Below, one piece after another: positions 6,116-40,427 of a stretch of 64,000 nt of DNA. A program made the translations under genes and the position numbers. The stretch lies in assembly GCA_964516845.1 (NCBI GenBank), contig CAZEXP010000005.1, positions 1,030 to 65,029 of the forward strand, given 5' to 3'. Source of the stretch: an uncultured bacterium (lineage in GTDB: Bacteria > Joyebacterota > Joyebacteria > Joyebacterales > Joyebacteraceae). Under the pieces are notes generated by a model. The model saw only the letters and a list, made by a program, of their open reading frames with translations, ran no database searches and was not told where the DNA came from. The stretch's first letter is position 1; each line of letters starts with the position of its first letter.

Positions 6116-6583
6116 GTGAAGGCGCGCAACTACATGACCCGCGACGTTGTGACGGTCGGTCGTTCGACGAACATCGCCGAGATCGCGCGGCTCCTGCGGA
6201 CGCACAACATCACAGGCGTGCCCGTCGTGGACGATGACGGACACCTTCTCGGCGTGGTGACGCATGAGGAACTCATCAACATATTTCTGCCGCACTACCT
6301 GTCGATGTTCGATGATCTGGCGTTCCTCGACGACCTCAGCGCCATCGAGGCGCAGACGATGTCGGAGATCGAGCCGTCGCTCTTTCTCGCCGAGGATATC
6401 ATGCATGTCGATCCGCATACCGTGGGCCCCGACACTTCGATGATGAAGGTGGCAGCCGTTATGTTGAACAACAAGCACGTGCTCCTGCCCGTGGTCGATG
6501 ATGACAACCGTGTTGTGGGCGTCATCAACAGGAGCGCAGTGAGTTCCGCCTTCACGGGCGCCGCATCAGAGGAGGGGCGATGA
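6116..6583 (+). CDS. CBS-domain pair protein
   Basis: Two CBS motifs: ARNYMTRDVVTV...GVPVVDDDGHLLGVVT and LPVVDDDNRVVGVI. Confidence 0.9.
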   Translation: MKARNYMTRDVVTVGRSTNIAEIARLLRTHNITGVPVVDDDGHLLGVVTHEELINIFLPHYLSMFDDLAFLDDLSAIEAQTMSEIEPSLFLAEDIMHVDPHTVGPDTSMMKVAAVMLNNKHVLLPVVDDDNRVVGVINRSAVSSAFTGAASEEGR

Positions 6584-10650: not shown

Positions 10651-10761
10651 CCGGGCGGGCGCGGATCGACCAGGTGCGACCACGGCCGCGCGGATGCGTC
10701 AAAACGAGATAGTATACTCACGGATACCATGCGAGACACCGATTGAAGGGAGAAACCGGGA

Positions 10762-11748: not shown

Positions 11749-11765
11749 ATCGCCATCGAGACTTC

Positions 11766-11812
11766 GCGCTGGTGGAGGCGGACCGTCCGGCGGGCGGGCC
11801 GTTCGCCAGCGC
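11766..11812 (+). terminator. Long imperfect GC hairpin (terminator or transcript-stabilising stem)
   Basis: GCGCTGGTGGA pairs with TTCGCCAGCGC, plus an inner stem (about 21 bp in total, with G-U pairs); only a weak U-tract follows. Confidence 0.45.
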
Positions 11813-11872
11813 TTCTCACAGGCGGATGACCGCAGGTGGCCGAGCGTGGCTGTGGCCGGGCACAACGGGGGG

Positions 11873-21099: not shown

Positions 21100-21111
21100 C
21101 CGTTCGCGCAG

Positions 21112-22845
21112 ATGGGAGCCCCTGTGCTGAAGTCCAACCGGCTCACGGTCCTCGCAGCGCTCGTCGTCACGACGTGCGCGTTCGTCGCGGTCGCGACGGC
21201 GTCGGAGATGTTCCCGACGGTCGTCGGGAACGTGCGAGCGGAGGGGCATCAGAGTGTGAGCACGCGCGAACTCCTCGACGCGTTCGGCGTGGCGCGTGGC
21301 GATCCGCTCGACCCGGAGGCGCTGGCATCCGGGGCCGACTCGGTGCTCGCGCTCCTCGCCGCGAGCGGCAGTCCGTTCGCGTCCGTCCGCGTCGACTGGG
21401 ATGACGAGGATCCGGCCGGCGTTGTCGTTCGCGTGGAGGAGGCTCGAGGCGGGCGCATCGCCTCGGTCGCATTCGCCGGGAACACGGCGGTCGGGACGGG
21501 TGAACTCGAGCTGCTTGTCGCGGCTCAGTCGGGAAGACCAACGACGGCGGCCATGCTCGAGGGAGACGCGGCGTCGATCGCCGCCCGGTATGCGGAGCGG
21601 GGATACCCGCTTGCGGCCGTTCGCCCGACCGTATCGCTCGCCACGGATGAACCGGGCGGACTCCTGCTCGTCTACGAGATCAACGAGGGACTGGCGGTCA
21701 CGTTCGCGGACGTCCTTGTGGTCGGGAACAAACAGACCCGGGCCGAAGTCATCACACGGGAGACGGGCATCGTCCGCGGCGAGCCCTTCCGTCTCTCGGT
21801 GCTGGAGGACGTTCGACCGACGCTCGAGCGTCTGCCGTTCCTGGCATTCGTTGGGGAACCGGCCGTCGCCATCAATCGCGAGACCGGCACGGCCGATGTG
21901 GGGATCGAGGTCGGGGAGGCCCGCGCGAACCGGATCAGCGGCGTGCTGGGGTATGTCCCCACCACCGAGGGTGAGGGCGAATTCACGGGGCGGGCCGACA
22001 TCAGCCTGGGAAACATCGCGGGGACCGGCCGGAGGGCGCGGGCGACCTGGGAGAGGGTGCGCGACGGGCACGACCGGATCGCCTTCGACTACACCGAACC
22101 GTGGTTGTTCGGAGCCCCCATCGACGCGGGTGTCCGCGCCGAGCAGGTCAACCGCGACACGCTCTACTCGACGACGGAGGGCGACCTCTTCGTCACGGCT
22201 CGTTTCGGGACGCGGCTCGCCGTGACGTGGTCGGCCGGCGCGGAGCGGTACGTACCCGGCACGGGCGATGAGCCCTCAACCGACGGCTACCGCACGGCGC
22301 TCGAATTCACATACGACAGGACCGACAGTCCGCTCAATCCGACCCGAGGCGTCGAGTCGAGCGGTCGTCTCTTGTACGCCAGTGTCGAGGCCATCGAGGG
22401 GGATGCGTCGTATCGAACGGGCACGCTGAACGCGTCCGCGGCGGTGTACGTGCCCGTGCGGCGAGCTCAGGTCCTGGCGCTCGCGGCACGCGGCGCGGCG
22501 CTCACGTCGAGCGACGACGACGTTCCGCTCCATAAGCAGCTCGTCCTCGGAGGAGCGGGAAGCCTGCGCGGATACCGCGAAGAGCAGTTCCACGGGACGG
22601 TCACGGCCCTCGGCAGTCTGGAGTATCGGTTCATCTTCGGACGGTACGCACGTATCGCGGCCTTCCTCGACATCGGCCACTACTCCAGGGAGGGTTCCAA
22701 CCCCGTGTCGGAGACCAAGTTAGGCTACGGGGTCGGGTTGCGGGGGGAGACCCGATTGGGTATAATCGCCGTCGACTACGGCCTCGGTGAGGGAGACGGA
22801 TTCCTCGACGGCAAGCTCCACGTCGGCCTCATTCGCGAGTTCTGA
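21112..22845 (+). CDS. Omp85 (BamA/TamA-family) outer-membrane protein with POTRA domains
   Basis: POTRA segments (VAFAGN, LVVGNKQTRAEVITRE), LGGAGSLRGYREEQF lid loop and a terminal HVGLIREF. Confidence 0.88.
   Translation: MGAPVLKSNRLTVLAALVVTTCAFVAVATASEMFPTVVGNVRAEGHQSVSTRELLDAFGVARGDPLDPEALASGADSVLALLAASGSPFASVRVDWDDEDPAGVVVRVEEARGGRIASVAFAGNTAVGTGELELLVAAQSGRPTTAAMLEGDAASIAARYAERGYPLAAVRPTVSLATDEPGGLLLVYEINEGLAVTFADVLVVGNKQTRAEVITRETGIVRGEPFRLSVLEDVRPTLERLPFLAFVGEPAVAINRETGTADVGIEVGEARANRISGVLGYVPTTEGEGEFTGRADISLGNIAGTGRRARATWERVRDGHDRIAFDYTEPWLFGAPIDAGVRAEQVNRDTLYSTTEGDLFVTARFGTRLAVTWSAGAERYVPGTGDEPSTDGYRTALEFTYDRTDSPLNPTRGVESSGRLLYASVEAIEGDASYRTGTLNASAAVYVPVRRAQVLALAARGAALTSSDDDVPLHKQLVLGGAGSLRGYREEQFHGTVTALGSLEYRFIFGRYARIAAFLDIGHYSREGSNPVSETKLGYGVGLRGETRLGIIAVDYGLGEGDGFLDGKLHVGLIREF
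22738..22766 (+). promoter_or_regulatory. Candidate sigma70 promoter embedded in the Omp85 gene, upstream of ligA
   Basis: TTGCGG, 17-nt spacer, perfect TATAAT (22761-22766), built from codons rare for this GC level (CGA TTG GGT ATA). Confidence 0.55.
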
Positions 22846-24935: not shown

Positions 24936-25022
24936 TCCTCCGGACGTTCAGCTGGACCGCCCGGAGTGAGGATCATGCCCCCTCCGCACCATCATCACAG
25001 CAGCCAGAGGAATGGGGTTCCC

Positions 25023-26312
25023 ATGCTGGTCATGAAGGAGACGCGCGACGGGCGGACGACGCCCGATCTCGAGGCCGTCGCGTGTGAAGAGGGCATCGAC
25101 GTCGCGCTGCTGGCCGAACAGGTGGCCAACGGCCGTGTCGCAATCATGAAGAACTCGAACAATTCGCATCGTCCCGTTGGCGTGGGTGAGGGGCTTCGGA
25201 CGAAGGTCAACGCCAATCTGGGGACATCATCGGACGCCTCGGACATCGAGGAGGAACTTCTCAAGGTCGACGCCGCGATCGAAGCCGGCGCGGACGCCGT
25301 CATGGACCTTTCCACGGGCGGCGATATCGACATGATCCGCCGCGCGGTCGTCGAGCGCTCCACCGTTCCGGTCGGAAGCGTTCCCCTCTATCAGGCGGCC
25401 ATCAAGGCGCGTCGCGAAGGTCGTGGGATGGTCAACATGACGCCCGATGAGATCCTCGACGGCGTGCGGGCTCATCTGGACGACGGTATCGACTTCGTCA
25501 CCGTCCACTGCGGTGTGACGCGCGAGGTCGCCGGCCACTGCAGGCGCACTCCGCGGCTCGCGGACGTCGTCAGCCGGGGCGGCTCGTTCCTGATGGAATG
25601 GATGTCCTACAACGACGCGGAGAACCCGCTCTACGAGCGCTACGACGACCTTCTGGATATCGTGGCCGAGTACGACGCGACGATCAGTCTTGGCGACGGA
25701 CTCAGGCCCGGCGCGTTGGCGGACGCCAACGACGCGGCCCAGATCGCCGAGCTCACCGTGATCAGCGAACTGGTGTTGCGCGCGCGCGAGCGCGGTGTGC
25801 AGACCATCGTCGAGGGCCCGGGACACGTGCCGCTCGATCTGGTGGCGTCCTCCGTGGAGCTCGAGAAATCGCTCTGCCACGGCGCGCCGTTCTACGTGCT
25901 CGGACCGCTCGTGACCGACGTTGCGCCGGGATACGACCACATCGTCGGCGCCATCGGCGGCGCGGTCATCGCCATGGCAGGCGCGGACTTCCTCTGCTAC
26001 GTCACACCCGCCGAGCACCTGCGTCTTCCGACCATCGAGGACGTGAAGGAGGGCGTCTACACGTTCCGCGTGGCCGCCCATGCCGCGGACATCGCCAAGG
26101 GTATCCCGGGTGCGCGGGATTGGGACGACCGCTTCTCGGCGGCCCGCAGGGCGCTCGACTGGGACACGATGATGAAGCTCTGCCTCAACCCCGAGAAGGC
26201 GAAGAGCTTCCGCGACGCGGCCCCGCCCTCGGACGACCGCCTCTGCTCGATGTGCGGCGAGTACTGCGCCGTGCACAAGATGAGCGGTGTCCGCGAGAGG
26301 GAGGGCGAATGA
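25023..26312 (+). CDS. thiC: Phosphomethylpyrimidine synthase ThiC (short type); a ThiC-family Bza paralog is not excluded
   Basis: KVNANLGTS, DAVMDLSTGG, VSRGGS, EGPGHVP, CYVTPAEHL and C-terminal CSMCGEYC. Confidence 0.85.
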   Translation: MLVMKETRDGRTTPDLEAVACEEGIDVALLAEQVANGRVAIMKNSNNSHRPVGVGEGLRTKVNANLGTSSDASDIEEELLKVDAAIEAGADAVMDLSTGGDIDMIRRAVVERSTVPVGSVPLYQAAIKARREGRGMVNMTPDEILDGVRAHLDDGIDFVTVHCGVTREVAGHCRRTPRLADVVSRGGSFLMEWMSYNDAENPLYERYDDLLDIVAEYDATISLGDGLRPGALADANDAAQIAELTVISELVLRARERGVQTIVEGPGHVPLDLVASSVELEKSLCHGAPFYVLGPLVTDVAPGYDHIVGAIGGAVIAMAGADFLCYVTPAEHLRLPTIEDVKEGVYTFRVAAHAADIAKGIPGARDWDDRFSAARRALDWDTMMKLCLNPEKAKSFRDAAPPSDDRLCSMCGEYCAVHKMSGVREREGE

Positions 26313-29395: not shown

Positions 29396-31060
29396 ATGGG
29401 CAGCGCACAGAAGAGGACCGTGCGGGCGCCTCGCGGCACCGAGATCACCTGTAAGGGGTGGCTCCAGGAGGCCGCGATGCGGATGATCATGAACAACCTC
29501 GACCCGGAGGTCGCCGAGAATCCGGACGAACTCGTCGTCTACGGGGGCACCGGCCGCGCGGCCCGGAGCTGGGATGCGTTCGAGGCCATCGTCAGGACGC
29601 TCAAGACGCTCGAGAACGACGAGACGATGCTCGTCCAGTCCGGGAAGCCCGTCGGCGTGCTGAAGACACATCCGGATGCGCCGAGGGTCCTCCTGGCGAA
29701 CTCGAACCTCGTCGGCGACTGGGCCACATGGGACAAGTTCCGGGAACTCGAGCGGCAGGGCCTCATCATGTACGGACAGATGACGGCCGGCAGCTGGATC
29801 TACATCGGGACCCAGGGTATCCTCCAGGGAACGTACGAAACGCTGGCCGAGCTCGCCCGTCAGCACTTCGGCGGGAGTCTTGCGGGAAGACTCGTTCTGA
29901 CCGGCGGCATGGGCGGCATGGGCGGCGCGCAGCCGCTCGCCGTGACGATGAACGGCGGCGTCTGTCTCTGCGTGGAGGTCGACGCGGCCCGGATCCGGAT
30001 GCGGCTCGACACGGGGTACTGCGACCGGATGGTCCATGACCTCGACAAGGCGCTCGCGATGGCCGATGAAGCCGTCAAGGCCGGCAGGCCGCTCTCGATC
30101 GGCCTGGTGGGCAACTGCGCCGAGGTCATCCCCGAGATGGTCAAGAGGCGTGTGACCCCCGACGTCGTGACCGACCAGACGTCGGCGCATGACGCGCTGA
30201 GCGGGTACGTGCCGGGCGGAATGCCGCTCGCCGACGCGCTCAGGCTCCGCGACGACGACCCGGAGGCGTACATCGAGCGCTCGATGCGCTCGATGGCCGA
30301 CCACTGCCGCGCGATCCTCGATCTTCAGAGGGCCGGTTCGATCGCCTTCGACTACGGCAACAACCTCAGGGGGCAGGCCAAGGACGCGGGTGTCGCGAAC
30401 GCGTTTGATTACCCCGGGTTCGTTCCCGCGTACATCAGGCCGCTCTTCTGCAGTGGCAAGGGGCCGTTCCGCTGGGTGGCGCTCTCGGGAGATCCTGAGG
30501 ACATCTACAAGACCGACGAGGTCATCGTGCGTGAGTTCCCGAGAGACGAGGCGCTGGTCCGCTGGATCAAGCTCGCGCGCGAGCAGGTGCACTTCCAGGG
30601 ACTTCCATCGAGGATCTGCTGGCTCGGCTACGGCGAGCGGGCCCGGTTCGGGAGGATCATCAACGACATGGTCGGCTCGGGCGAGATCTCGGCGCCCATC
30701 GTCATCGGCCGCGACCACCTCGACAGCGGCTCCGTGGCATCGCCGTACCGGGAGACCGAGGGAATGAAGGACGGCAGCGACGCGATCGCCGACTGGCCCG
30801 TTCTCAACGCACTCATCAACGCCGTCGGAGGCGCCACGTGGATCTCATTCCACCACGGCGGCGGCGTCGGTATCGGCAAGTCGCTCCACGCGGGCATGGT
30901 GATCGTGGCGGATGGAACGCCCGAGGCAGCGGTCCGGCTCGAGCGCGTGCTCACGACCGACCCGGCCACGGGCGTGATTCGGCACGCCGACGCGGGGTAC
31001 GATGAGGCCATCGCCTTCGCGGCCGACCACGGTATCCGGATTCCGATGCGGGAGAGATAA
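29396..31060 (+). CDS. hutU: Urocanate hydratase
   Basis: [49 protein letters not shown] and HHGGGVG motifs. Confidence 0.98.
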
Positions 31061-31065
31061 CCGAT

Positions 31066-32358
31066 ATGCAGACAGTCGACCTTCTGGTGCGCAACATTGG
31101 ACAGCTCGTGACCGTCGCGGGGCGGGGTCCCCGTGTGGGTCCGGCCGCGCGTGAACTCGGCATCATCGAGGACGGGGCGGTCGCCGTCATTGACGGCCGC
31201 ATCGTGGCGGCTGGGCCGGAGTTCGGCGTGCTCGCCGCGTACGCGCCGGCTGCTGACGCCGTCGTGATCGACGCCGCCGGCGCCGTTGTGACGCCGGGGT
31301 TCGTCGACCCACACACGCACGCGGTCTTCGCGAGAACACGCGAGGACGAGTTCGCGATGCGCGTTGAGGGGAGGAGTTACGAGGAGATCGCGGCGGCCGG
31401 TGGCGGGATCCGTTCGAGCGTCCGACAGGTTCGCGCGGCGACCGAAGAGCTTCTCTTCGAGCACGGCGCCGCGACACTCGATCGCATGCTCGAGTACGGC
31501 ACCACGACGGCCGAGGTCAAGAGCGGCTACGGGCTCTCGCTCGAGGCGGAGATCAAGATGCTGCGCGTGATCGCTCGGCTGGCCGAGCATCACGCGGTCG
31601 ACGTCGTGCCGACCTTCCTCGGCGCGCACGAGTTTCCGGATGAGTGGCGGGACGACCGCGACGGGTACGTGACGTACCTCGTCGACGAGGTCATCCCGCT
31701 CGTTGCGGGCAACGGTCTCGCGGAGTTCTGCGACGTCTTCTGTGAGGAAGACGTCTTTACGGTGGAGCAGTCACGCCGGCTGCTGCTCGCCGCCGCGTCG
31801 CACGGTCTGCGGCCGAAGCTCCACGCGGACGAACTCCATGCGTCCGGGGGCGGAGAGCTGGCGGCGGAGGTCGGCGCGATCTCGGCCGACCACCTCGTCT
31901 TCGTCTCGGACGCGGGCATTCGCGCGATGGCGGACGCGGGAGTTGTTGCGGTCCTGCTCCCGGGCACGACGCTTTCGCTCGGCAAGCGCGAGTTCGCGCC
32001 GGCGAGGAAGTTCGTCGATGCGGGTGTTCCCGTGGCGCTCGCGACGGACTGCAACCCCGGCAGCTCGATGACCGAGTCGATGCAGATCATCGTCTCGCTC
32101 GCGAGCATGGTCATGCGCCTGACGCCCGCCGAGGCGCTCGTCGCCGCGACCGCGAACTCGGCGGCCGCGCTCGGTCGGTCGGGCAACGTGGGGAGTATCG
32201 AGCCGGGCAAGCTGGCGGATCTGGTCGTCTGGGAGGTCGACGATTACCGGGCGATCCCGTATCACTACGGTGTGAATCTTACGAGCACGATCATCAAGCG
32301 CGGCGCGGTCGTGAGGGGAGAGACCCCGGGTGCGCCCACGGACGGAGGCGGACGATGA
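31066..32358 (+). CDS. hutI: Imidazolonepropionase
   Basis: PGFVDPHTH, GGGIRSSV, EVKSGYGL, KLHADE, SADHL and ATDCNPGSS motifs. Confidence 0.97.
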   Translation: MQTVDLLVRNIGQLVTVAGRGPRVGPAARELGIIEDGAVAVIDGRIVAAGPEFGVLAAYAPAADAVVIDAAGAVVTPGFVDPHTHAVFARTREDEFAMRVEGRSYEEIAAAGGGIRSSVRQVRAATEELLFEHGAATLDRMLEYGTTTAEVKSGYGLSLEAEIKMLRVIARLAEHHAVDVVPTFLGAHEFPDEWRDDRDGYVTYLVDEVIPLVAGNGLAEFCDVFCEEDVFTVEQSRRLLLAAASHGLRPKLHADELHASGGGELAAEVGAISADHLVFVSDAGIRAMADAGVVAVLLPGTTLSLGKREFAPARKFVDAGVPVALATDCNPGSSMTESMQIIVSLASMVMRLTPAEALVAATANSAAALGRSGNVGSIEPGKLADLVVWEVDDYRAIPYHYGVNLTSTIIKRGAVVRGETPGAPTDGGGR

Positions 32359-33254
32359 AGATCGTTGAGTGTGTTCCGAACTTCAGCGAGGGCAGAAGGC
32401 CGGAGGTACTCGACGAGATCGTCGGGACCATGACGGCCGTCGAGGGGGCGCGACTTCTCGACAAGGAGATGGATGCGGATCACAACCGGGCGGTCGTGAC
32501 GATCATCGGGGAGCCGGAGGCCGTGCTTGAGGCCGCTTTCAGAGGCATTGAGAAGGCGCGCGAGCTCATCGACCTGACGAAGCACGAGGGCGAGCACCCG
32601 CGCATGGGTGCGACCGACGTCTGTCCGTTCGTCCCCGTCACCGAAGTTACGATGGCCGAGTGCATCGAGCTGGCGCAGCGGCTCGGCGAGCGGGTCGGCA
32701 CGGAACTCGATATCCCGGTCTATCTCTACGAGGCGGCCGCGACCACACCGGCGCGCGAGAATCTTGCGAAGGTCCGGAAGGGGCAGTTCGAGGGGCTCCG
32801 GGACGAGATCGGAACGAACCCGAAGAAGGTGCCGGACTTCGGACCGAACCGCATCCACCCGACCGCGGGCGCCGTCGCAATCGGTGCGCGCGAGTTCCTC
32901 GTCGCGTACAACATCAATCTGGGGACCGACGATATCTCGATCGCCAAGACGATCGCGAAATCGATCCGATTCGCCGGCGGGGGCCTGAGATACGTCAAGG
33001 CGATGGGGTTCGAGATCAAGGATCGCAACATCGTCCAGGTCTCGATGAACATGGTCAACTACAAGGGAACACCGCTGTTTCGCGTCTACGAGATGGTGAA
33101 GACGGAGGCGGAGCGGTACGGCGTTCCCGTGATCGGCTGCGAGATCGTCGGGTTGATCCCGCTGGACGCACTCGTCGACTGCGCCGATTTCTACCTGAGG
33201 CTTGAGAGTTTCAGCCGCGACCAGATCCTCGAGAACCGCCTCGCCGAGCTGTAG
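32355..33254 (+). CDS. ftcD: Glutamate formimidoyltransferase
   Basis: VECVPNFSEGR, DADHNRAV, HEGEHPRMGATDVCPFVP and VQVSMN motifs. Confidence 0.96.
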   Translation: MKIVECVPNFSEGRRPEVLDEIVGTMTAVEGARLLDKEMDADHNRAVVTIIGEPEAVLEAAFRGIEKARELIDLTKHEGEHPRMGATDVCPFVPVTEVTMAECIELAQRLGERVGTELDIPVYLYEAAATTPARENLAKVRKGQFEGLRDEIGTNPKKVPDFGPNRIHPTAGAVAIGAREFLVAYNINLGTDDISIAKTIAKSIRFAGGGLRYVKAMGFEIKDRNIVQVSMNMVNYKGTPLFRVYEMVKTEAERYGVPVIGCEIVGLIPLDALVDCADFYLRLESFSRDQILENRLAEL

Positions 33255-33274
33255 GGCGGGGGGAAGGAGACACC

Positions 33275-33901
33275 ATGGGTGGGATGAACGACTTTCTGGC
33301 CGAGCTGGCCTCCAGCGAACCGACCCCGGGTGGCGGCAGCGTCGCCGCGCTCTGCGGCGCGCTTGGCGCGAGTCTTGGTTCGATGGTCTGCAGCCTCACG
33401 ATCGGGAAGAAGAAGTACGTCGACGTCGAGGAGGACATGAAGCGCGTGCTGGCGCAGACCGAGAGGCTGCGCGTGGAACTCGAGCAGCTCATCGACGAGG
33501 ACGCCGCGGCCTTCGACAAGGTGATGGTCGCGATGAAGCTGCCGAAGGAGACCGACGAGGAGAAGGCCGTCCGTCGCGACGCCATCCAGGACACGCTGGT
33601 CGACGCGGCGATGGTGCCGCTCGCCGTTATGCAGAAGTGCGTTGAGGTCGTCGAACTCTCCGAGACGATCGCGGCGAAGGGGAACACGAACGCGGTCTCG
33701 GACGCCGGCGTGGCGGCGCTCGTCGGTAGGGCCGGCGCGCACGCGGCCAGGCTCAATGTCATGATCAATCTCGGCGGAATCCGGGCCGAGCGGCACGCAG
33801 GGTTCGTCGAGAAGGCGAACGCCGCGCTCAACCAGCTCACCGAGCGCGTCGACAGGATCGCGGATGACGTGATGGAGGCCGTACTCGAGTCCGTCACGTA
33901 G
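33275..33901 (+). CDS. Formiminotetrahydrofolate cyclodeaminase / methenyl-THF cyclohydrolase family
   Basis: LASSEPTPGGGSVAAL, LIDEDAAAF, GNTNAVSDAGVAA and ARLNVMINL motifs. Confidence 0.92.
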   Translation: MGGMNDFLAELASSEPTPGGGSVAALCGALGASLGSMVCSLTIGKKKYVDVEEDMKRVLAQTERLRVELEQLIDEDAAAFDKVMVAMKLPKETDEEKAVRRDAIQDTLVDAAMVPLAVMQKCVEVVELSETIAAKGNTNAVSDAGVAALVGRAGAHAARLNVMINLGGIRAERHAGFVEKANAALNQLTERVDRIADDVMEAVLESVT

Positions 33902-33992: not shown

Positions 33993-34400
33993 ATGACCAG
34001 GTGGCTCGTAATAGCTATCGCGGCTCTCTTCCTCGCGGTCGGGTGCGCGCCCGTACCGGAAGGCGGGGACCCCGCCACCGACGGGGAATTCGGCACCTTC
34101 TCTCTGATCGACCACGCCGTGGCGCAGGGGAGGATCGACTACTCGACGGGCATGCTCTACAAGATCTACGCGCAGTACGATCCGATGAGTCTTCCTGAGG
34201 AGTACCAGAGCGACGCCATCGGGATGGTAGGGGCCCCTCTCGTCACCGAGATCGAGCGGAACTGGCACCGGATCCTGCCGGAACACCGGGCTGAGATCTC
34301 CCAGTACATCGAGCATCTGCTCGACATCGACGACAGTGAGACACAGCTTGACGACGTGACGCCCGACCGCCTCGACCAGGAACGGAATCGGATTGACTGA
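33993..34400 (+). CDS. Hypothetical lipoprotein
   Basis: AGGAGG RBS before ATG 33993; lipobox LAVG-C. Confidence 0.7.
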   Translation: MTRWLVIAIAALFLAVGCAPVPEGGDPATDGEFGTFSLIDHAVAQGRIDYSTGMLYKIYAQYDPMSLPEEYQSDAIGMVGAPLVTEIERNWHRILPEHRAEISQYIEHLLDIDDSETQLDDVTPDRLDQERNRID

Positions 34401-36867
34401 CCCCGTGCGTGAGAACGCCGCGGGCGGACCCGTCCCGGTCCGCTGGACGGCTCCTGTCGCGGTCCTCGCCGCGCTCGCGGCCGCGCTCGGCTATGCGCTG
34501 GCTGCGGTTCCCAACATCGAGCTGATCACGCTGGTCGTGTTCATCTCGGGGGCTGCGCTCGGGCGGCTTCGCGGGGCGCTTGTCGGATTCATCGCGATGG
34601 GGATCTACTCGGGGCTCGGTCCGTATGGTTCGGGTCTTGCCATTCCCACGCTCTTTGCGGGGCAGATCGGCGCGATGGCGCTCGTCGGGTTCGCGGGCGG
34701 GCTCCTCCGACAGCTTTGGAGCGGGAAGGCCAACGCAACCCGCATCGCGGCGGCCGCCGCGGCCGGCCTCGTGCTCACGGCCATCTATCAGGCCGCCGTC
34801 ATCGTCGGCTACGCCGCGATGAGTCCCGAGTTCGCCGACGGGTTTCTCGCGGCTCTCACCGCGAATCTGTTCTTCCCATACGTTCACATCATATGGAACA
34901 CGATCCTCTTCGCCGTGCTCGTCCCGCTGCTCGTCCCGCGGGTCCGCCGTCTCGCCATGGTCGCAGTGTCGGGCGTCATCCCGTTGCTTCTGGCGACGGC
35001 GCTCCTGGTCGCACCGACCGGTGCGGTGGCCCAGGACATCGTGCCGCCGGGGCTCGAACCCGAGCCTGAACCTGAGCCCGCGACCCCCGTCGTGGCTCTT
35101 CCCGACTCGCTGTACCCCGGACCAGGGATCGACCTGCTCGGCGTGCGTCGCGTTGTCGGACTGGAGTTCGGGGGAGATCACGACGCTTCGTCCGCGGCCG
35201 GGGCGCTTCCGGCTCTCCGTGTCGTCTCGTCCCGATGGCCGGGACAGCGCGCGTCCGTTACCCGGGGCGGCATTCCGGCGGGACTCTCGGTGGTCACCGA
35301 GGTCGGCCGGTCGGGCAGCGACTGGCTCCTTGACGGGCTGGGTCTCCTGGACGCGGTCGCGACGCGCGGACCGGTCCTCGTGCCGTCGGGTCCCGATCTG
35401 TCGACACGTTCTCTCTTCGCCTCCGGTGTTGTCGTCTTCGACCGGGGCGGCCCCGCGCAGGGGATCGCGGCCGGGACGGGTTCGGCCTCGGTCCGGTACT
35501 ACGCGGGCCGCCGCTTCGCCGGGACCCCCTTTTCGCGGGTCGGCATGGCCAGCGGTGACGCCGGGCTCCGGTGGCGGATCGTCGAGTTCGGGAGTGGTCT
35601 CCGCGAGCGCGGAGCCGTCACCGGGTTCTTTGAAGGGCGGAGCGGGCGTGGCCCGAATCCGGGCGGCGAGTACGAGCGCGAGAGCTTCGGCGCGTCGGCG
35701 ACCCTCGATCTGTCCGGCGACTGGAGGGCGGAGCTCCTGGGGTCGAGCGTGACGGCGTCGCGCAGCATCCCCGACGCGGCCGGTGTCTCGGGCGCGGTCC
35801 TGGATGTATCGTCCGGAGCGGTCGATGTGGCCGTCACGAACGGGAGTGCGCGGCTCGGGATCTTCCACGCGGCGACGCGGATCGGGGACTCTCGCGGCGG
35901 CAGCGCGGGAACCTGCGAGAGCGGCCGGACGGGCGCGGTCCTCGACCTGCCCGTCGAACTCGGCGTCCTGCGGTCGGTGCACGCGCGCGCGTCCGGGCTT
36001 GTGGCGGAGGGGAGTCTTCTGACGAGCGGCGTTCACGCGCTGTCCGCCGGCGCCTCCGCGAGCGGGGGCGTGCGGGTCGGCGACTGGGAGGCTCTGGTCA
36101 GCGCCGGGGCGTCCCGCCAGCGGGGAGAGACGGTTCCAGAGCTCTCCTGTCTTGTGGCGCATGAGGACGGCAACGCCGGTCCGTGGTTCACTCTCGACAT
36201 CGGCGGCCGCTTCCCGACGGCGACGGAGCTTGCCGGTGTGGATCGTCCCGTCGTCGGCGACGACGACCGGTTGATCGGGGGTGCGGGAGACATCGGGGCC
36301 GAGCGGGCGGCGACGGCGGGTCTCGGCTGGGCGATGGGTTCGGGTCGTCTGGACGCCGGTGTCACCGGCGAGATCACGCGCGTGCTTTCGCCGATCGTTC
36401 TCGAGGATGATGCGGCGGGTGTTCTCAGGCCCGTGCCGGGGGACGATGCGACGGCGTCAATGCTGGCGTTCTGGGCCGCAGTCGTCGATACCGCACTCGG
36501 TGGAGTCAGGGTCTCCGCCGAGGCTATCGGCATTGATGCGGAGGGGCCGCTCAACGCGCTCGCGCCGGTGCCCGAACTCGCCGGTCACGCGTCGGTCTGG
36601 GTCGATCGACGGTTCTTCAAGCAGACCCTCGACGTTCGTTTCGAGGTCTCGGTGGCGTACGAGACCGGACTCGCCCGGGGCGTCTGGAACGGTGTCGTCG
36701 ACGACGCGCTCTGGCGCACACGATTCGCCGCCTCCGGCGCGGTCGGACCGGCGCGGCTGCAGGTCACGGTCGACGACCCGTTCGACACGGACTCCGGCGG
36801 CTGGCCGGGGTATGCCTTCTCCGAGCCCCGCGTGACCTACGCTTTCATATGGGACTTCTGGAACTAG
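34393..36867 (+). CDS. ECF-type S component (CbrT-like) fused to an OM beta-barrel-like domain
   Basis: Residues ~15-185 are about six TM helices with PNIELIT, GQIGA and H-x-x-x-N. They are followed by a signal-like RVRRLAM...AVA-Q, a PEPEPEP linker and ~610 aa ending YAFIWDFWN, all in one uninterrupted frame. Confidence 0.8.
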   Translation: MTDPVRENAAGGPVPVRWTAPVAVLAALAAALGYALAAVPNIELITLVVFISGAALGRLRGALVGFIAMGIYSGLGPYGSGLAIPTLFAGQIGAMALVGFAGGLLRQLWSGKANATRIAAAAAAGLVLTAIYQAAVIVGYAAMSPEFADGFLAALTANLFFPYVHIIWNTILFAVLVPLLVPRVRRLAMVAVSGVIPLLLATALLVAPTGAVAQDIVPPGLEPEPEPEPATPVVALPDSLYPGPGIDLLGVRRVVGLEFGGDHDASSAAGALPALRVVSSRWPGQRASVTRGGIPAGLSVVTEVGRSGSDWLLDGLGLLDAVATRGPVLVPSGPDLSTRSLFASGVVVFDRGGPAQGIAAGTGSASVRYYAGRRFAGTPFSRVGMASGDAGLRWRIVEFGSGLRERGAVTGFFEGRSGRGPNPGGEYERESFGASATLDLSGDWRAELLGSSVTASRSIPDAAGVSGAVLDVSSGAVDVAVTNGSARLGIFHAATRIGDSRGGSAGTCESGRTGAVLDLPVELGVLRSVHARASGLVAEGSLLTSGVHALSAGASASGGVRVGDWEALVSAGASRQRGETVPELSCLVAHEDGNAGPWFTLDIGGRFPTATELAGVDRPVVGDDDRLIGGAGDIGAERAATAGLGWAMGSGRLDAGVTGEITRVLSPIVLEDDAAGVLRPVPGDDATASMLAFWAAVVDTALGGVRVSAEAIGIDAEGPLNALAPVPELAGHASVWVDRRFFKQTLDVRFEVSVAYETGLARGVWNGVVDDALWRTRFAASGAVGPARLQVTVDDPFDTDSGGWPGYAFSEPRVTYAFIWDFWN

Positions 36868-36953: not shown

Positions 36954-36976
36954 GAGTTCGCAGGGTGGGAGGGGAC

Positions 36977-37417
36977 GTGAGAGGGTTCCTTACGCGCGAT
37001 GAGCGCGCGGTCATCGCCTTTCTGGCGACGGCCACGGCAGTCGGGGCGATCGTGCTCGGTCTTCGGGGCGTCGACCCGGCACTTGTGCCGGATCTCGTTT
37101 CATCGGCCGGGACCGGGGTGGTGATCTCGGACGAACTCATTGACCGGACCGGACGCACGGAGCGGGCCGAGCAGGTCACGGGTCCCATCGACGTGAACGA
37201 GGCCACCGAGGAAGAACTGACGGGGCTGCCGGGGATCGGTCCCGCGAAGGCTGCGGCGATAGTGAGATACCGCGAGCGGCACGGTCGCTTCGCCTCGCTC
37301 GACGCTCTGCTCGATGTCAGCGGTGTCGGCCCCGCGACGCTCGATCGGCTTCGCCCGGTGGCGACTCTCGGGAGTGTGGAACCGCCCACCGAAGGACAGG
37401 TCAGGGAGGGACGATGA
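36977..37417 (+). CDS. comEA: ComEA-family helix-hairpin-helix DNA-binding protein
   Basis: N-terminal TM helix; IDVNEATEEELTGLPGIGPAKAAAIVRYR...VSGVGPATL. Confidence 0.9.
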   Translation: MRGFLTRDERAVIAFLATATAVGAIVLGLRGVDPALVPDLVSSAGTGVVISDELIDRTGRTERAEQVTGPIDVNEATEEELTGLPGIGPAKAAAIVRYRERHGRFASLDALLDVSGVGPATLDRLRPVATLGSVEPPTEGQVREGR

Positions 37418-39027
37418 GTATGGGGCTGGCGGCGGCACGCGGCATCATCGTTGGACGCCTGCTCGTCTCGGCCGCCGTGATCGCGGCGGCGCTGATGAGC
37501 GACGATATCTCGGTCACGCCCGTTGTCCTGCTGGGTATCGGCGTCGCGGCCCTGAGCGTCCCGCACGCCATCTGGTCACGCAAGCGTGGACGTGAGAGTC
37601 TGTGGCTTCTCGTGACGCTGTTCGTTGCCGATGTCGTGCTCGTGACCCTGATCGTGCTCTCGTCCGGCGGTCTGGCCAGTCCGTTCAAGCTTCTCTACTT
37701 CCTTCCGTTGATTGTCTCGTCGACGGCGCTTGGACCGAAGCCCGGCGCCATCGTGACGGTCTCGTCGCTTGCCGCGTTCGCCGCACTCTTCATCGCCGAG
37801 AGTCCCATGACCATGCGTTCGCACGGGGCCGGCATCCTGGCGGAGACGGCCGTTCTCGCGATCTCGCTCACGGTGGTCTCGATCCTCGTCGGCATCCTCT
37901 CGGCGCGCGTTCGCGAGGGAGAGAAGAAGCTGGGGGAGGTGGAGACCGCTCTCGAGGCGGCGCACGTCCACATCGACAATCTCATAGAGAGCATCCAGAG
38001 CGGTCTGGCGCTCTTCGACATGTCGGGCGGTCTTCTCTCACTGAACGAACGTGGTAGAGCCATTCTCGGCATGCCGGCGCCCGGAGCGCCGCGCGCGCAC
38101 TTCTCGGAGGTCTTCGCGGCGCAACCGGCTCTCGCCGAGCAGGTATCAGCCGCCGTGGAGCACGGGAAGACGGCGGAGCGCGTTGAACTCAGCGTCGAGC
38201 GAGCCGGCGGGACCGTTCCCGTCGGGCTCTCGACCTCGCTGCTCCGCGACGATGACGGAGTCGCCGCGGGTGTCATCATGATATTCCAGGACATCACCGA
38301 GGCGCGCCGTCAGGAGCTGGACAGGCTCCACGCGGACCGACTCGCGTCGCTCGGCCAGTTCGCGGCGGGCATGGCTCACGAGATCAGGAATCCACTGAAC
38401 GCCATCAAGGGGTCGGCCGAGATGCTTCGGGACGGTGTCGCAGCAGGGAGCGACGATGCGCGGCTGGTCGATCTGGTGATTCGGGAGAGCGACCGCCTCG
38501 CAACGCTCACCAACGACGTGCTCACCTACGGACGCGTCATGGGGCCGCCGACGGGAACCGTGTTCCTCGAAGCGCTGTTCAGGGAGGTTGAGGCTATCGC
38601 CCGGTCGCACCGGGCATTCGGGGACGGAATCGAGCTGGCGATGGATGACGGCGGGATCCGCTCGCGGGGGAACTCCGAGCAGCTCAAGCAGGTTCTTCTG
38701 AACCTCGTGGTCAACGGGATCGAGGCGATCGAGGAGACGGGTTCCGTCCGCGTCACCGCGGGTGTCGGGGGCGCCGTCTTTGCGAACGGGCGGAGCGGAA
38801 CGGACGACGAGATCGCCATCAGTGTCGTCGACACGGGCGTTGGGATGGAACGCGAGAGCCTCGAGCAGATGTTCGCGCCGTTCTGGACGACGAAGCAGAC
38901 CGGAACGGGCCTCGGACTCGCCATCGCCGACAGGCTTGTCGAGGCGCACGGCGGACGTATCGAGATCGAAACCGGGCCGGGGCAGGGCAGCCGGTTCGTC
39001 ATCTATCTTCCGAAGGCAAGAGACTAG
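37414..39027 (+). CDS. PAS-domain sensor histidine kinase (PilS-like)
   Basis: Multi-TM N-terminus, PAS domain, AHEIRNPL, LKQVLLNLVVN, DTGVGM and GTGLGL motifs. Confidence 0.92.
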   Translation: MSMGLAAARGIIVGRLLVSAAVIAAALMSDDISVTPVVLLGIGVAALSVPHAIWSRKRGRESLWLLVTLFVADVVLVTLIVLSSGGLASPFKLLYFLPLIVSSTALGPKPGAIVTVSSLAAFAALFIAESPMTMRSHGAGILAETAVLAISLTVVSILVGILSARVREGEKKLGEVETALEAAHVHIDNLIESIQSGLALFDMSGGLLSLNERGRAILGMPAPGAPRAHFSEVFAAQPALAEQVSAAVEHGKTAERVELSVERAGGTVPVGLSTSLLRDDDGVAAGVIMIFQDITEARRQELDRLHADRLASLGQFAAGMAHEIRNPLNAIKGSAEMLRDGVAAGSDDARLVDLVIRESDRLATLTNDVLTYGRVMGPPTGTVFLEALFREVEAIARSHRAFGDGIELAMDDGGIRSRGNSEQLKQVLLNLVVNGIEAIEETGSVRVTAGVGGAVFANGRSGTDDEIAISVVDTGVGMERESLEQMFAPFWTTKQTGTGLGLAIADRLVEAHGGRIEIETGPGQGSRFVIYLPKARD

Positions 39028-39053: not shown

Positions 39054-40427
39054 ATGCCACACGGGAGGATACTCGTCATCGATGACGAGGACAGCATCAG
39101 GGAGTATTTGTCCATGATGCTCGAGCGAGAGGGGTACGAGGTTCTGGCCGCGTCCGACGGGAAGAAGGCGGTGAAGCTGAGCAAACGCGAGAGCTTCGAC
39201 GCGGTTATCACCGACATCCAGCTTCCCGGCATGACGGGCATCGAGATCCTCGGCTCGTTCAAGGAGTCGGACCCGACGGTTCCCATTATCATCGTTACCG
39301 GGCATGCGTCGCAGGAATCGGCCATCGAGGCGCTCAATCTCGGGGCATTCTACTACCTCCTGAAGCCCGTCTCGAACGAAGAGCTCAAGCAGGTCGTCCG
39401 GAATGCTCTCGAGGTCAAGCAACTGCGGACCGAGAAGAACGATCTGGAACGCGCGCTCCACCCGAGCGCCGACCGTGACATGGTCGGTGACAGCGAGGGG
39501 CTCCACTCCGTATTCGATCTGATCGACCGCGTCGCGAGGACGGCGAGCACCGTCATGCTCAGGGGAGAGAGCGGCACGGGGAAGGAACTCGTGGCTCGCG
39601 CCATTCACGCGGGGAGCGTCCGGGCGGACCAGCGGTTCGTGTCGATCAACTGCGGGGCTCTGCCGGAGACGCTGCTCGAGAGCGAGCTCTTCGGGCATGT
39701 GAAGGGATCGTTCACGGGAGCCGTGCGCGACAAGCGCGGGCTGTTCGTCGTCGCGGACGGCGGGACGTTCTTTCTCGACGAGGTCGGGGAGACGTCGCTT
39801 GCCATCCAGGTGAAACTCCTCCGCGTGCTCCAGGAGCGCGAGGTCGTCCCGGTCGGCGGAACCAAGCCGACGAAGGTTGACGTCCGGGTCATCGCCGCGA
39901 CGAACGCCGATCTCGAGCTGGATGTGCAGGAAGGGAACTTCCGTGCGGACCTGTACTACCGTCTGAACGTCATCCCTATCACCATTCCGCCGCTTCGCGA
40001 CCGTCGCGACGACATCCCGCTGCTGGTAGAACACTTCCTGCAGAAGCTTGCTTCAGGGGAGAAGACGATCGCCGAGGGAGCGATGGACATTCTCACATCG
40101 TACGAGTGGCCGGGAAACGTGCGCGAGCTCGAGAATATCATCGAACGCGCGGTGATCCTCGCTGACGGCAGTGAGATCACCGCGGAGAGTCTCAACGTTT
40201 CGATCTTCCCCGAGCGTCTCCGGAAGCGGTCGCGGTCGACCGGAACGGGCGATCTGGGCGTCAGCGGGATCACGCTCGACGAACTCGAGCAGCGGTACCT
40301 GCTTCAGACGCTTGAGGAGACGAGCTGGAAGAAGAAGCAGGCGGCGGAGATCCTGGGGATCAACCCGTCGACGCTCTACAGGAAGCTCCAGCGCTACGGG
40401 ATGGAGGGCGATGTCGAGGATGACTAG
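39054..40427 (+). CDS. sigma54-dependent response regulator (NtrC/PilR family)
   Basis: Receiver domain, [33 protein letters not shown] and a Fis-type HTH. Confidence 0.95.

What the first reader, a model, noticed from the sequence alone, without database searches (positions are those of the whole stretch)
34393..36867. Cobalamin-type ECF S component fused through an internal signal peptide to an outer-membrane barrel: a one-gene, two-membrane importer?
Seen: one uninterrupted 824-aa frame. Residues ~15-185 form a compact multi-helix membrane domain (PNIELIT...GQIGA...YVHIIWNTILF...RVRR). Then come a basic-hydrophobic segment ending AVA-Q (Q214, nt 35032), a PEPEPEP linker and ~610 aa of strand-like sequence ending YAFIWDFWN. 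The internal Met189 (34957) has no RBS. Known: this motif layout resembles CbrT, the ECF cobalamin S component. S components are normally stand-alone ~20-kDa inner-membrane proteins, and the solitary S component BtuM is associated with B12 uptake in diderms. Inference: a polyprotein cut by signal peptidase I into an inner-membrane carrier and an OM receptor or porin, probably for corrinoids. No ECF A or T genes are in the window.
Basis: partly seen in the sequence, partly recalled or inferred. Interest (0 to 1): 0.88.

Follow-up and report, generated by a model that had tools for sequence, protein, structure and literature searches.

The report
Inner and outer B12-type transporters fused
One gene in an uncultured Gram-negative bacterium encodes a CbrT-like inner-membrane vitamin carrier, then a signal peptide in mid-protein, then a BtuB-like outer-membrane receptor; in relatives these are two adjacent genes, often under a vitamin B12 riboswitch, so a single polypeptide probably supplies both membranes of a B12-type uptake route.

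Summary
Window 34393-36867 (+) is one 824-aa frame, and it is uninterrupted in at least six independent assemblies at 61-99% identity.

- **N-terminal domain (residues 1-186):** a six-helix ECF S-component. A family profile matches the solved cobalamin S-component CbrT (6FNP) at E 1e-11.
- **Internal signal peptide (residues 183-213):** a classical n-h-c signal peptide ending AVA|Q214. It aligns with the N-terminal signal peptide of relatives in which the barrel is a separate gene.
- **C-terminal domain (residues 214-824):** folds with high confidence (pLDDT 85) as a plug plus beta-barrel TonB-dependent transporter. The best structural matches are BtuB.

The S-component gene followed by this kind of barrel gene is the norm for a large unannotated family. 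The two genes have fused repeatedly (roughly 12 inferred changes). A cobalamin riboswitch sits directly upstream in 13 of 41 related loci, including three loci that carry fused genes. No riboswitch was found in the window or in its own subfamily.

Cleavage by signal peptidase I and the corrinoid substrate are inferred, not shown. I found no published description of this fusion. I rate it a new variant of known kinds.

The parts
34393..36867 (+). Whole fused gene, 824 aa plus stop. The start is TTG at 34393, which overlaps the upstream gene by 8 nt; GTG at 34405 is an alternative start.
   Evidence: full-length homologues
34393..34950 (+). Residues 1-186: CbrT-like ECF S-component domain with six long helices. 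It keeps family-invariant P40, N41, E43, Q91, T129, H165 and N169.
   Evidence: Pfam, weak but full-length; family profile against CbrT 6fnp_A, E 1.2e-11; AF2 pLDDT 91 with S-components as the top fold matches; 21 of 22 conserved family residues kept
34939..35031 (+). Residues 183-213: internal signal peptide. The n-region is RVRR, the h-region is 187-206 and the c-region is APTGAVA. The predicted signal peptidase I cut is between A213 and Q214 (nt 35031/35032).
   Evidence: small residues at -3 and -1 and an invariant Q at +1 in all close homologues; h-region variable in sequence and length; aligned with the N-terminal signal peptide of stand-alone P0006 (...AARA|QE); the same AxA|Q style is seen in this genome's own secreted proteins
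35032..35148 (+). Residues 214-252: disordered N-terminal extension of the mature barrel protein. It holds an acidic EP repeat (222-229), the conserved motif VVALPDSL (233-240, nt 35089-35112) and a candidate TonB box GVRRVVG (250-256, nt 35140-35160).
   Evidence: AF2 pLDDT below 50 for mature residues 1-39; motif conservation; the TonB-box assignment is inference only
35149..35511 (+). Residues about 253-373: plug domain of the TonB-dependent transporter.
   Evidence: AF2 secondary structure; Foldseek alignments to BtuB cover about 590-640 columns; hhalign against relatives that do score for Pfam Plug
35530..36864 (+). Residues about 380-824: beta-barrel of roughly 22 strands. The final strand is ...RVTYAFIWDFWN; the family C-terminal motif is GRxxxxGFxWxFW[D/N].
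   Evidence: C-terminal motif shared by about 50 adjacent barrel genes
33993..34400 (+). Upstream 135-aa predicted lipoprotein (lipobox LAVGC), translationally coupled to the fusion. It is conserved at this position throughout the window's subfamily. Its function is unknown and its membership in the system is only suggested.
   Evidence: same position in L001-L006, L011, L138, L139; no Pfam or NCBIfam hit

Best explanation
The gene encodes a precursor that supplies both membranes of a small-molecule uptake route, most likely for corrinoids.

**Shown**
- Residues 1-186 are a CbrT-family ECF S-component, an inner-membrane substrate-binding carrier.
- Residues 183-213 have the anatomy of a Sec/signal peptidase I signal peptide.
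- Residues 214-824 form a plug-plus-barrel TonB-dependent transporter of BtuB size and shape.
- In relatives the two parts are adjacent, overlapping genes, and the barrel gene carries this same signal peptide at its N-terminus.
- The fusion has arisen repeatedly.

**Inferred mechanism**
1. The six S-component helices insert into the inner membrane with the C-terminus on the cytoplasmic side.
2. The seventh hydrophobic segment, with RVRR on the cytoplasmic side, starts Sec export of the rest of the chain.
3. Signal peptidase I cuts after AVA213.
4. The S-component keeps the signal peptide as an extra C-terminal helix.
5. The released receptor, starting at Q214, is chaperoned to an Omp85/BAM machine and inserted into the outer membrane.
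6. The receptor, energised by TonB, brings the substrate into the periplasm, and the S-component carries it across the inner membrane. It does this either alone, as BtuM and solitary BioY do, or with an ECF module encoded elsewhere.

Because cleavage separates the two products, fusing the overlapping genes costs nothing and fixes a 1:1 output. That would explain why the fusion recurs.
For: - **Real, conserved fusion:**
- **S-component identity:** (CbrT, E 1.2e-11; 46 of 65 family members hit ECF_trnsprt).
- **TonB-dependent transporter identity:** AF2 pLDDT 84.6 and pTM 0.87. Foldseek gives 339 PDB hits at E<=1e-3, topped by BtuB 1nqg at E 1.9e-23, TM 0.72/0.76, with B. theta BtuB1 8blw_A at TMq 0.75. 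The fused relative P0038 scores ECF_trnsprt + Plug + TonB_dep_Rec_b-barrel in Pfam.
- **Signal peptide:** the -3/-1 rule is conserved, with invariant A213 and Q214 amid a variable h-region and linker. The split relative L011 has an S-component gene ending in an ATGA overlap with a barrel gene that starts with a signal peptide ending ARA|QE. Nearly all other fused proteins show an AxA-type site after the extra hydrophobic segment. The genome's own signal peptides look the same.
- **Gene pair is the norm:** about 50 of 61 informative loci.
- **Recurrent fusion:** at least 12 changes on the N-domain tree.
- **Corrinoid link:** an RF00174 riboswitch lies directly upstream in 13 of 41 related loci, including the fusions P0070, P0157 and P0052. 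The window's barrel family is homologous to those riboswitch-controlled barrels (hhalign probability 99.1%, E 8e-19). The window's S-domain keeps the family's conserved polar residues.
- **Diderm host with an Omp85 protein and T9SS genes:**
- **Published precedents:** BtuM, a solitary S-component-like B12 transporter found through co-localisation with btuB (PMC6072759); CbrT as the ECF cobalamin S-component (PMC5997447); Q at +1 of signal peptidase I sites in Bacteroidetes (PMC5837995).
Against: - No cleavage data exist, and no SignalP-type predictor was available. The site was judged by rule and by homology.
- The h-region is long for a signal peptide (about 20 residues), although it is as long in the stand-alone homologue.
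- The window and all loci of its own subfamily lack a cobalamin riboswitch. There the gene sits after hutU-hutI-formiminotransferase-cyclodeaminase and a small lipoprotein.
- The window protein itself is below Pfam thresholds for every domain, so family assignment rests on profiles and predicted structure.
- The BtuB top rank in Foldseek may partly reflect BtuB being the smallest solved transporter of this class.
- In several riboswitch loci a second, canonical TonB-dependent receptor is also present, so the S-paired barrel need not be the main B12 receptor.
- The protein ends in W-N rather than a terminal aromatic residue.
- TonB-ExbBD and an ECF module could not be looked for outside the 64-kb window.
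Confidence: 0.6

Rival explanations
1. The architecture and processing are as above, but in the window's subfamily the substrate is not a corrinoid. It could be folate or a pterin, or a compound linked to histidine catabolism. In this subfamily the gene always follows hutU-hutI-formiminotransferase-cyclodeaminase, which are tetrahydrofolate-dependent enzymes, and it has no B12 riboswitch.
For: The synteny FTCD_C - small lipoprotein - S/barrel (fused or split) holds down to about 30% barrel identity. No RF00174 hit occurs in any locus of this subfamily. Folate does have an ECF S-component, FolT (general knowledge).
Against: The family profile hits CbrT and not FolT. The window's S-domain keeps 21 of 22 family-wide conserved residues that it shares with riboswitch-controlled members. 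A more distant fused relative (P0106) keeps the LigA...ComEA-PilSR neighbourhood without the FTCD genes, so the gene order looks like lineage inheritance rather than an operon built around function.
Confidence: 0.2
2. The signal-like segment is not cleaved. The protein stays as one chain, with the S-component in the inner membrane tethered through the EP-rich linker to the plug of its own outer-membrane barrel. That would make it a true two-membrane-spanning transporter.
For: The linker is proline- and glutamate-rich, like the TonB spacer; the only hit to TonB_N was non-significant (E 2.6). The pairing of the two parts is unusually strict across the family. No cleavage data exist.
Against: Only about 36 residues separate A213 from the candidate TonB box in the window. 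By rough estimate from general knowledge, that is at most about 125 Å fully extended, short of a typical periplasm. Linker length varies from about 36 to 78 residues among fused relatives and overlaps the 28-68 range of split ones (with manual correction of the site picks). The AxA|Q site is conserved while the h-region is not. Split relatives work with the same segment as an ordinary N-terminal signal peptide. Repeated fusion and fission are easier to explain if the two states are equivalent.
Confidence: 0.1
3. The barrel part is made separately by internal translation initiation near Met189, so the fusion is only apparent at the level of the reading frame.
For: An in-frame ATG exists at 34957.
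Against: There is no Shine-Dalgarno-like sequence upstream. Met189 is not conserved in the four other distinct homologues. A product starting at M189 would lack the positively charged n-region RVRR.
Confidence: 0.05
4. Artefact or decaying gene: a frameshift or assembly error has merged two overlapping genes.
For: Split relatives have 4-nt overlaps that a single indel could fuse.
Against: The fused frame is conserved in independent assemblies from four sources at 61-99% identity, with in-frame indels and strong conservation of both domains. Other fused subfamilies each contain several clusters that are under 50% identical to one another.
Confidence: 0.03

Closest known systems
CbrT, the cobalamin-specific S-component of the ECF-CbrT transporter (Lactobacillus delbrueckii, PDB 6FNP; PMC5997447)
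   Same: Similar size (CbrT 182 aa against the 186-aa domain here) and a six-helix S-component fold. Motifs are shared: PNV(E/Q), a conserved Gln in helix 3/4 and F..H...N..F in helix 6. The family profile matches CbrT end to end at E 1.2e-11.
   Different: CbrT is a stand-alone protein of a Gram-positive bacterium and works with EcfAA'T. Here the domain is in a diderm, is fused or adjacent to an outer-membrane receptor, carries an extra C-terminal hydrophobic segment, and has no ECF ATPase nearby in the window or in any of 120 related loci. Overall identity is low, and the window sequence alone does not reach CbrT.
BtuB, the TonB-dependent cobalamin receptor (E. coli 1NQG/2GSK; Bacteroides BtuB1 8BLW)
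   Same: Plug plus beta-barrel of nearly the same size. These are the top Foldseek matches (E 1.9e-23, TM about 0.72-0.76). Related family members are under cobalamin riboswitches, as btuB is.
   Different: Sequence identity is about 13%. There is no hit in a PDB sequence-profile search and no Pfam Plug or TonB_dep_Rec hit for the window protein. The TonB box is atypical (candidate GVRRVVG), there is an extra conserved PDS motif, and the C-terminus ends in W-N/D. It is made as the C-terminal part of a membrane-protein precursor.
BtuM, a solitary S-component-like B12 transporter of proteobacteria (PMC6072759)
   Same: An S-component-fold inner-membrane protein in Gram-negative bacteria. It was predicted from co-localisation with btuB and is thought to work without an ECF module.
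   Different: It is a different sequence family: the profile does not hit BtuM in the PDB. BtuM's cobalt-ligating cysteine is absent, since the window's S-domain has no cysteine at all. BtuM is not reported as fused to BtuB.
Polyproteins split at an internal signal peptide, e.g. the Bradyrhizobium cytochrome b/c1 precursor FbcH (recalled from memory; not retrieved)
   Same: One reading frame in which a polytopic inner-membrane part is followed by an internal signal sequence and an exported part that signal peptidase is thought to release.
   Different: There both products stay at the inner membrane in one complex. Here the second product would be an outer-membrane beta-barrel, so one precursor would serve two membranes.

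Membership tests
ECF transporter S-component (Pfam clan of ECF_trnsprt PF12822 / ECF-ribofla_trS PF07155) | Score above the curated Pfam threshold | tested here: not met
   The window domain scores 22.0 bits on PF07155 against a cut-off of 26.7, although it is aligned over profile positions 8-169 of 172. Of 65 family members at 30-52% identity, 46 hit PF12822 and 42 hit PF07155 at E<=1e-3.
ECF transporter S-component | Six-helix S-component fold | tested here: met
   AF2 pLDDT 91 and pTM 0.87. The top genuine Foldseek matches are all S-components (PanT, ThiT, RibU, BioY, FolT) at TM 0.53-0.66 and probability 0.96-1.00, although the E-values are only 7e-3 to 1.
CbrT subfamily (cobalamin S-component) | Significant sequence relationship to CbrT, better than to other S-components | tested here: met
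   The family profile A5 gives 6fnp_A at E 1.2e-11 over the full length, against PanT at 0.006 and 4hzu_S at 0.23. With only the five close homologues in the profile, CbrT is not reached.
CbrT subfamily | Works with an EcfA/A'/T module | not testable with these tools
   No ABC ATPase or EcfT family was found among the scanned window ORFs, and no ORF with Walker A plus SGGQ occurs in 120 related loci. ECF modules are often encoded elsewhere, and the rest of the genome is not available.
CbrT subfamily | Binds and transports cobalamin or cobinamide | not testable with these tools
   Indirect evidence only: cobalamin riboswitches directly upstream of 13 related S genes or fusions, and none in the window.
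BtuM | Conserved cysteine as cobalt ligand, and sequence similarity to BtuM | tested here: not met
   Residues 1-186 contain no cysteine, and the PDB profile search at E<=10 gives no BtuM hit.
TonB-dependent transporter (BtuB-like) | N-terminal plug inside a 22-strand beta-barrel | tested here: met
   The AF2 model (pLDDT 84.6) has a plug-like region at mature residues 40-160 followed by roughly 22 long strands; counting DSSP segments gives 22-24. Foldseek gives 339 PDB hits at E<=1e-3, and every one of the 50 listed matches is a TonB-dependent transporter.
TonB-dependent transporter | Pfam Plug (PF07715) and TonB_dep_Rec_b-barrel (PF00593) hits | tested here: not met
   The window protein gives none. 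The fused relative P0038 does (Plug 33.5 bits, barrel 62.8 bits), and so does the S-paired barrel of L106 (Plug 37.1 bits). hhalign links the window's barrel family to these at 99.1% probability.
TonB-dependent transporter | TonB box before the plug | tested here: inconclusive
   The conserved segment GVRRVVG (250-256) aligns with GDV(R/W)xVR in relatives, just before the plug.
TonB-dependent transporter | TonB-ExbB-ExbD present in the genome | not testable with these tools
   Not found in the 64-kb window. The rest of the genome was not seen.
btuB-type regulation | Cobalamin riboswitch in the leader | tested here: not met
   There is no Rfam hit anywhere in the window and no room for one upstream (10-90 nt gaps). 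A riboswitch is present in 13 of 41 related loci, none of them from the window's subfamily.
Sec / signal peptidase I signal peptide (internal) | n-h-c organisation, small residues at -3 and -1, no proline at +1 | tested here: met
   RVRR / 20-residue h-region / APTGAVA|QD. The sites AVA, ATA, VMA, GVA and AAA, each followed by Q, occur in the homologues. The segment is homologous to the N-terminal signal peptide of P0006. This was judged by rule; no SignalP was available.
Sec / signal peptidase I signal peptide (internal) | Cleavage actually occurs | not testable with these tools
   Needs N-terminal proteomics or expression experiments.

The most novel reading that the evidence does not exclude
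The fusion is the visible tip of an undescribed, widespread two-part corrinoid uptake system of FCB-type diderm bacteria. The system is a CbrT-like S-component that works without an ECF module, obligatorily partnered with its own divergent TonB-dependent receptor. The two may contact each other across the periplasm through the receptor's conserved PDS/TonB-box-bearing N-terminal extension. In the strongest version the fused form stays uncleaved and is the first single polypeptide to span both membranes as an alpha-helical carrier plus a beta-barrel.
Probability: 0.12. Interest if true: 0.92.

Novelty: new variant of a known kind. Interest (0 to 1): 0.72.

Why it matters
**Membrane-protein biogenesis.** If cleavage is confirmed, this is a natural case of one bacterial precursor feeding an alpha-helical carrier to the inner membrane and a beta-barrel receptor to the outer membrane. 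I could find no description of such an arrangement. It would show that an internal signal peptide makes fusion of neighbouring envelope genes nearly free, which may explain why the fusion has arisen about a dozen times in this family.

**Vitamin B12 ecology.** Many B12-dependent Gram-negative bacteria lack BtuCDF, and the inner-membrane step of their uptake is unknown (PMC6072759). The family has 423 clusters at 50% identity and no names in the databases. It is a strong candidate for that missing step in poorly studied environmental phyla, and the riboswitch links make this directly testable.

Tried and rejected
- **Direct family searches fail for the window protein.** Pfam and NCBIfam give nothing for the C-terminal part and only a sub-threshold hit for the N-terminal part.
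- **PDB sequence-profile searches of the barrel find nothing.** This holds with 5 sequences and with 37. Only predicted structure revealed the fold.
- **The close-homologue profile is too narrow.** A PDB profile search with only the five close N-domain homologues gave a non-significant PanT hit. CbrT appeared only with the broad profile.
- The search for related loci on metagenomes with the broad alignments had no conserved stretch to search with. I replaced it with a hand-made degenerate DNA pattern for PN[VIL]E..F..G...G...G...G.
- **The automatic cleavage-site picker was unreliable.** My crude picker mis-placed several fused sites. The linker lengths quoted for fused proteins were corrected by hand, so the fused-versus-split comparison is only rough.
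- **Foldseek on the S-domain gave weak E-values.** This is typical for small helical membrane proteins, and CbrT itself was not among the 50 listed matches.
- **Literature searches found no report of the fusion.** I searched for an S-component::TonB-dependent receptor fusion. A search for the FbcH polyprotein precedent returned nothing usable, so that precedent rests on memory.
- **The organism's phylum could not be determined.** The records are titled 'uncultured bacterium'. T9SS genes point to the FCB group.
- **Rejected explanations:** assembly artefact, internal initiation at Met189, BtuM membership, and a soluble periplasmic C-terminal domain.


Full report
**1. The observation**

Window 34393-36867 (+) is a single open frame of 824 codons. 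It starts at TTG 34393, with GTG 34405 as an alternative, and it overlaps the stop of the upstream gene by 8 nt.
- a very hydrophobic, alanine-rich N-terminal 186 residues with several helix-length segments;
- RVRR followed by a 20-residue hydrophobic stretch and APTGAVA|QD;
- an EPEPEPEP run;
- about 610 residues rich in G, A, V, S and R that end in YAFIWDFWN.

Met189 has no Shine-Dalgarno-like sequence before it.

The frame is not an artefact. A search of 5.8 billion proteins found five homologues at 61-99% identity, all full length, from NCBI, JGI, ENA and Logan assemblies. Both domains are strongly conserved and the linker is variable but always in frame. Their contigs are collinear with the window, and four genome-collection loci repeat the pattern.

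**2. The N-terminal domain**

On its own, the window domain gives only a sub-threshold Pfam hit to ECF-ribofla_trS (22 bits against a cut-off of 26.7). The alignment nevertheless covers the whole profile.

An exhaustive profile search of 1.84 billion representative proteins found 423 relatives. Many of them are stand-alone proteins of 170-225 aa that match residues about 15-188.
- Of 65 such proteins, 46 hit Pfam ECF_trnsprt and 42 hit ECF-ribofla_trS.
- A profile of these 65 plus the window domain matches the S-component of the solved ECF-CbrT cobalamin transporter (6fnp_A, 182 aa) end to end at E 1.2e-11. The next S-components are PanT at 0.006 and 4hzu_S at 0.23. 6FNP is ECF-CbrT (PMC5997447).
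- The AlphaFold model (pLDDT 91, pTM 0.87) has six long helices. All its genuine Foldseek matches are S-components (PanT, ThiT, RibU, BioY, FolT; TM 0.53-0.66), though with weak E-values.
- The domain has no cysteine and does not match BtuM, so it is not a BtuM.
- It keeps 21 of the 22 residues that are at least 85% conserved across 216 family members, including the polar N41, E43, Q91, T129, H165 and N169.

**3. The C-terminal domain**

No sequence method recognised this part. Pfam, NCBIfam and PDB profiles with 5 or 37 sequences all failed.

An AlphaFold model built on a 37-sequence alignment is confident (pLDDT 84.6, pTM 0.87).
- Mature residues 1-39 are disordered.
- Residues 40-160 form a mixed alpha/beta plug.
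- The rest is a set of long antiparallel strands: about 22 by eye, 22-24 as DSSP segments.

Foldseek against the PDB gives 339 hits at E<=1e-3. All 50 listed matches are TonB-dependent transporters. E. coli BtuB is first (1nqg, E 1.9e-23, TM 0.72/0.76), and Bacteroides BtuB1 has the highest query TM-score (8blw_A, 0.75). BtuB is the smallest solved member of the class, so the ranking may partly reflect size.

More distant fused relatives are recognised directly. P0038 (824 aa) scores ECF_trnsprt + Plug + TonB_dep_Rec_b-barrel above the Pfam thresholds.

**4. The junction**

In all five close homologues the residues at -3 and -1 are small (AVA, ATA, VMA, GVA, AAA) and +1 is an invariant Q. The hydrophobic core and the acidic linker, by contrast, vary in sequence and length.

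The decisive comparison is a split relative. On contig L011, with the same neighbours, a 233-aa S-component gene ends in an ATGA overlap with a 624-aa gene (P0006). P0006 is 34% identical to the window's C-terminal domain, and its product starts with an ordinary signal peptide, MTLRAHLGSSCVLASAVIALLLISPPAARA|QEGE. The internal segment of the window protein is therefore the homologue of an N-terminal Sec signal peptide.

Further support:
- Other secreted proteins of this window have the same style of site (STGWA|QSD; PorV-like ASA|QVS).
- Q at +1 is a known feature of signal peptidase I substrates in Bacteroidetes (PMC5837995).
- The window carries type IX secretion genes, which mark the FCB group.
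- Almost all other fused proteins in the family also show an AxA-type site after the extra hydrophobic segment.

S-components have both termini in the cytoplasm (established knowledge). A seventh segment with RVRR on its cytoplasmic side therefore has the right orientation to export what follows.

**5. The wider family**

All of them encode true family members (E 1e-19 to 1e-65). Of these, 118 are stand-alone and 2 are fused.

Among the 61 loci with at least 1.5 kb downstream, about 50 have an overlapping or adjacent ORF of 520-680 aa. That ORF has an N-terminal signal peptide and the family's C-terminal motif GRxxxFGxxWxF(W)D/N. The S-component plus barrel gene pair is thus the rule.

Fused proteins occur in at least six sequence subfamilies, and each has split relatives. 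Parsimony on a neighbour-joining tree of 216 N-domains (32 of them fused) puts the split state at the root and needs at least 12 changes. This is a rough figure from a short domain. None of the fused proteins carries a name in the source databases.

**6. Substrate**

Rfam finds no RNA family in the window. In related loci, however, a cobalamin riboswitch (RF00174, 40-112 bits) lies directly upstream of the S-component gene or the fused gene in 13 of 41 loci scanned.
- Fused genes: P0070 (L013), P0157 (L141) and P0052 (L140).
- Split pairs: L020, L035, L043, L047, L053, L067, L080, L088, L096 and L106.

The window's barrel family is homologous over its full length to the barrels of these loci (hhalign probability 99.1%, E 8e-19, 538 columns).

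Some of these loci also hold a second, canonical CarboxypepD_reg-Plug-barrel receptor. It is either under its own riboswitch or just downstream, once followed by an NHL-type propeller. So the S-paired barrel is one of several B12-regulated receptors there.

The window's own subfamily never has the riboswitch (L004, L011, L021, L137-L139). In it the gene or gene pair always follows hutU, hutI, formiminotransferase, cyclodeaminase and a small lipoprotein, and it precedes a ComEA-like gene and a PilS/PilR-like pair. A more distant fused relative keeps the LigA...ComEA...PilSR frame without the FTCD genes. I therefore read this order as inherited gene order rather than proof of function. It still leaves room for a different substrate, such as folate.

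**7. Energy coupling**

No ECF A or T, TonB, ExbB/D or BtuCDF family appears among the window ORFs scanned. None of the 4259 ORFs in the 120 related loci has both a Walker A motif and an ABC signature. S-components are often unlinked from their ECF module, so this does not settle whether the carrier works alone as BtuM does (PMC6072759). An Omp85/POTRA protein is encoded in the window, consistent with a diderm that can assemble barrels.

**8. Mechanism and rivals**

The best-supported reading is a precursor cut by signal peptidase I into two products:
- an inner-membrane S-component that keeps the signal peptide as a seventh helix;
- a TonB-dependent receptor starting at Q214.

The substrate is probably a corrinoid.

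The main rival on processing is an uncleaved tether. I rate it low for three reasons. Only about 36 residues separate the anchor from the candidate TonB box in the window. Linker lengths of fused and split forms overlap (hand-corrected). And the cleavage motif, not the helix, is what is conserved.

The main rival on function is a non-corrinoid substrate in this subfamily. Internal initiation and artefact are unlikely.

**9. Novelty**

Both parts belong to known kinds, and pairing an S-component-like B12 carrier with btuB by gene context has a precedent in BtuM (PMC6072759). What I could not find described in four literature searches is:
- this CbrT-like family of diderm bacteria;
- its near-obligate pairing with a divergent TonB-dependent receptor;
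- the repeated fusion of the two through an internal signal peptide.

I class it as a new variant of known kinds. Cleavage, substrate and energy source remain to be shown.

Noticed in passing
window 33993-34400 (+): A 135-aa predicted lipoprotein (lipobox LAVGC) with an acidic C-terminus and no Pfam or NCBIfam hit. Its stop overlaps the start of the fused gene by 8 nt. It holds the same position in every locus of the window's subfamily, fused or split (135-162 aa as called).
   Followed up: partly
window 36965-37417, 37414-39027, 39054-40427 (+): A ComEA-like HHH_3 protein with an N-terminal anchor lies directly downstream of the fusion, followed by a PilS-like histidine kinase and a sigma-54 PilR-like regulator. 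This neighbourhood is kept even in a distant fused relative, where pilB/T/C are inserted (L014).
   Followed up: partly
window 29396-33901 (+): A histidine-utilisation cluster using the formiminotransferase route: urocanase, imidazolonepropionase-type amidohydrolase, then formiminotransferase (FTCD_N/FTCD) and cyclodeaminase (FTCD_C) as separate genes. It lies immediately upstream on the same strand.
   Followed up: partly
window 6580-15073 (+): Type IX secretion genes: a 1356-aa C25-peptidase-family protein, a PorV-like barrel, and a 1075-aa FG-GAP protein with a Por_Secre_tail sorting domain. They place the organism in the FCB group.
   Followed up: no
window 17386-22845 (+): An Omp85/POTRA protein (21112-22845) is preceded by a 1237-aa ORF with no Pfam hit whose called N-terminus looks like an out-of-frame translation. 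This may be a TamA/TamB-like pair. My simple gene caller is unreliable here and at 24995-26300, where synteny predicts thiC.
   Followed up: no
L106 2886-5317; L067 1744-1874; L088 323-452; L140 12313-15468; L141 7511-10665: In loci with a riboswitch-controlled S-component/barrel pair or fusion, a second cobalamin riboswitch and/or a canonical CarboxypepD_reg-Plug-TonB receptor follows. In L140 and L141 this receptor is followed by an NHL/SGL-type beta-propeller, reminiscent of BtuG-type accessory proteins.
   Followed up: partly
L033 3069-4664 and similar ORFs in L026, L030, L037, L046, L062, L063, L068, L128, L133: A low-GC subfamily of S-paired barrels is only about 525-560 aa long. It has a conserved (P)FDW(S/A)GQ(F/N)G motif just after the signal peptide, and the one tested gave no Pfam hit. 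These barrels may lack a normal plug.
   Followed up: no
window 35089-35112 (residues 233-240) and aligned positions in relatives: A short conserved (A/L)PDS(L/V) motif lies in the disordered N-terminal extension of the barrel, 10-35 residues before the candidate TonB box. It is sometimes repeated in relatives. Its function is unknown.
   Followed up: no
L027 5237-5445 (-); L122 5486-5680 (-): Cobalamin riboswitches on the opposite strand lie a few kb from a stand-alone family S-component gene, so B12-regulated genes cluster near the family even where the S gene has no leader of its own.
   Followed up: no
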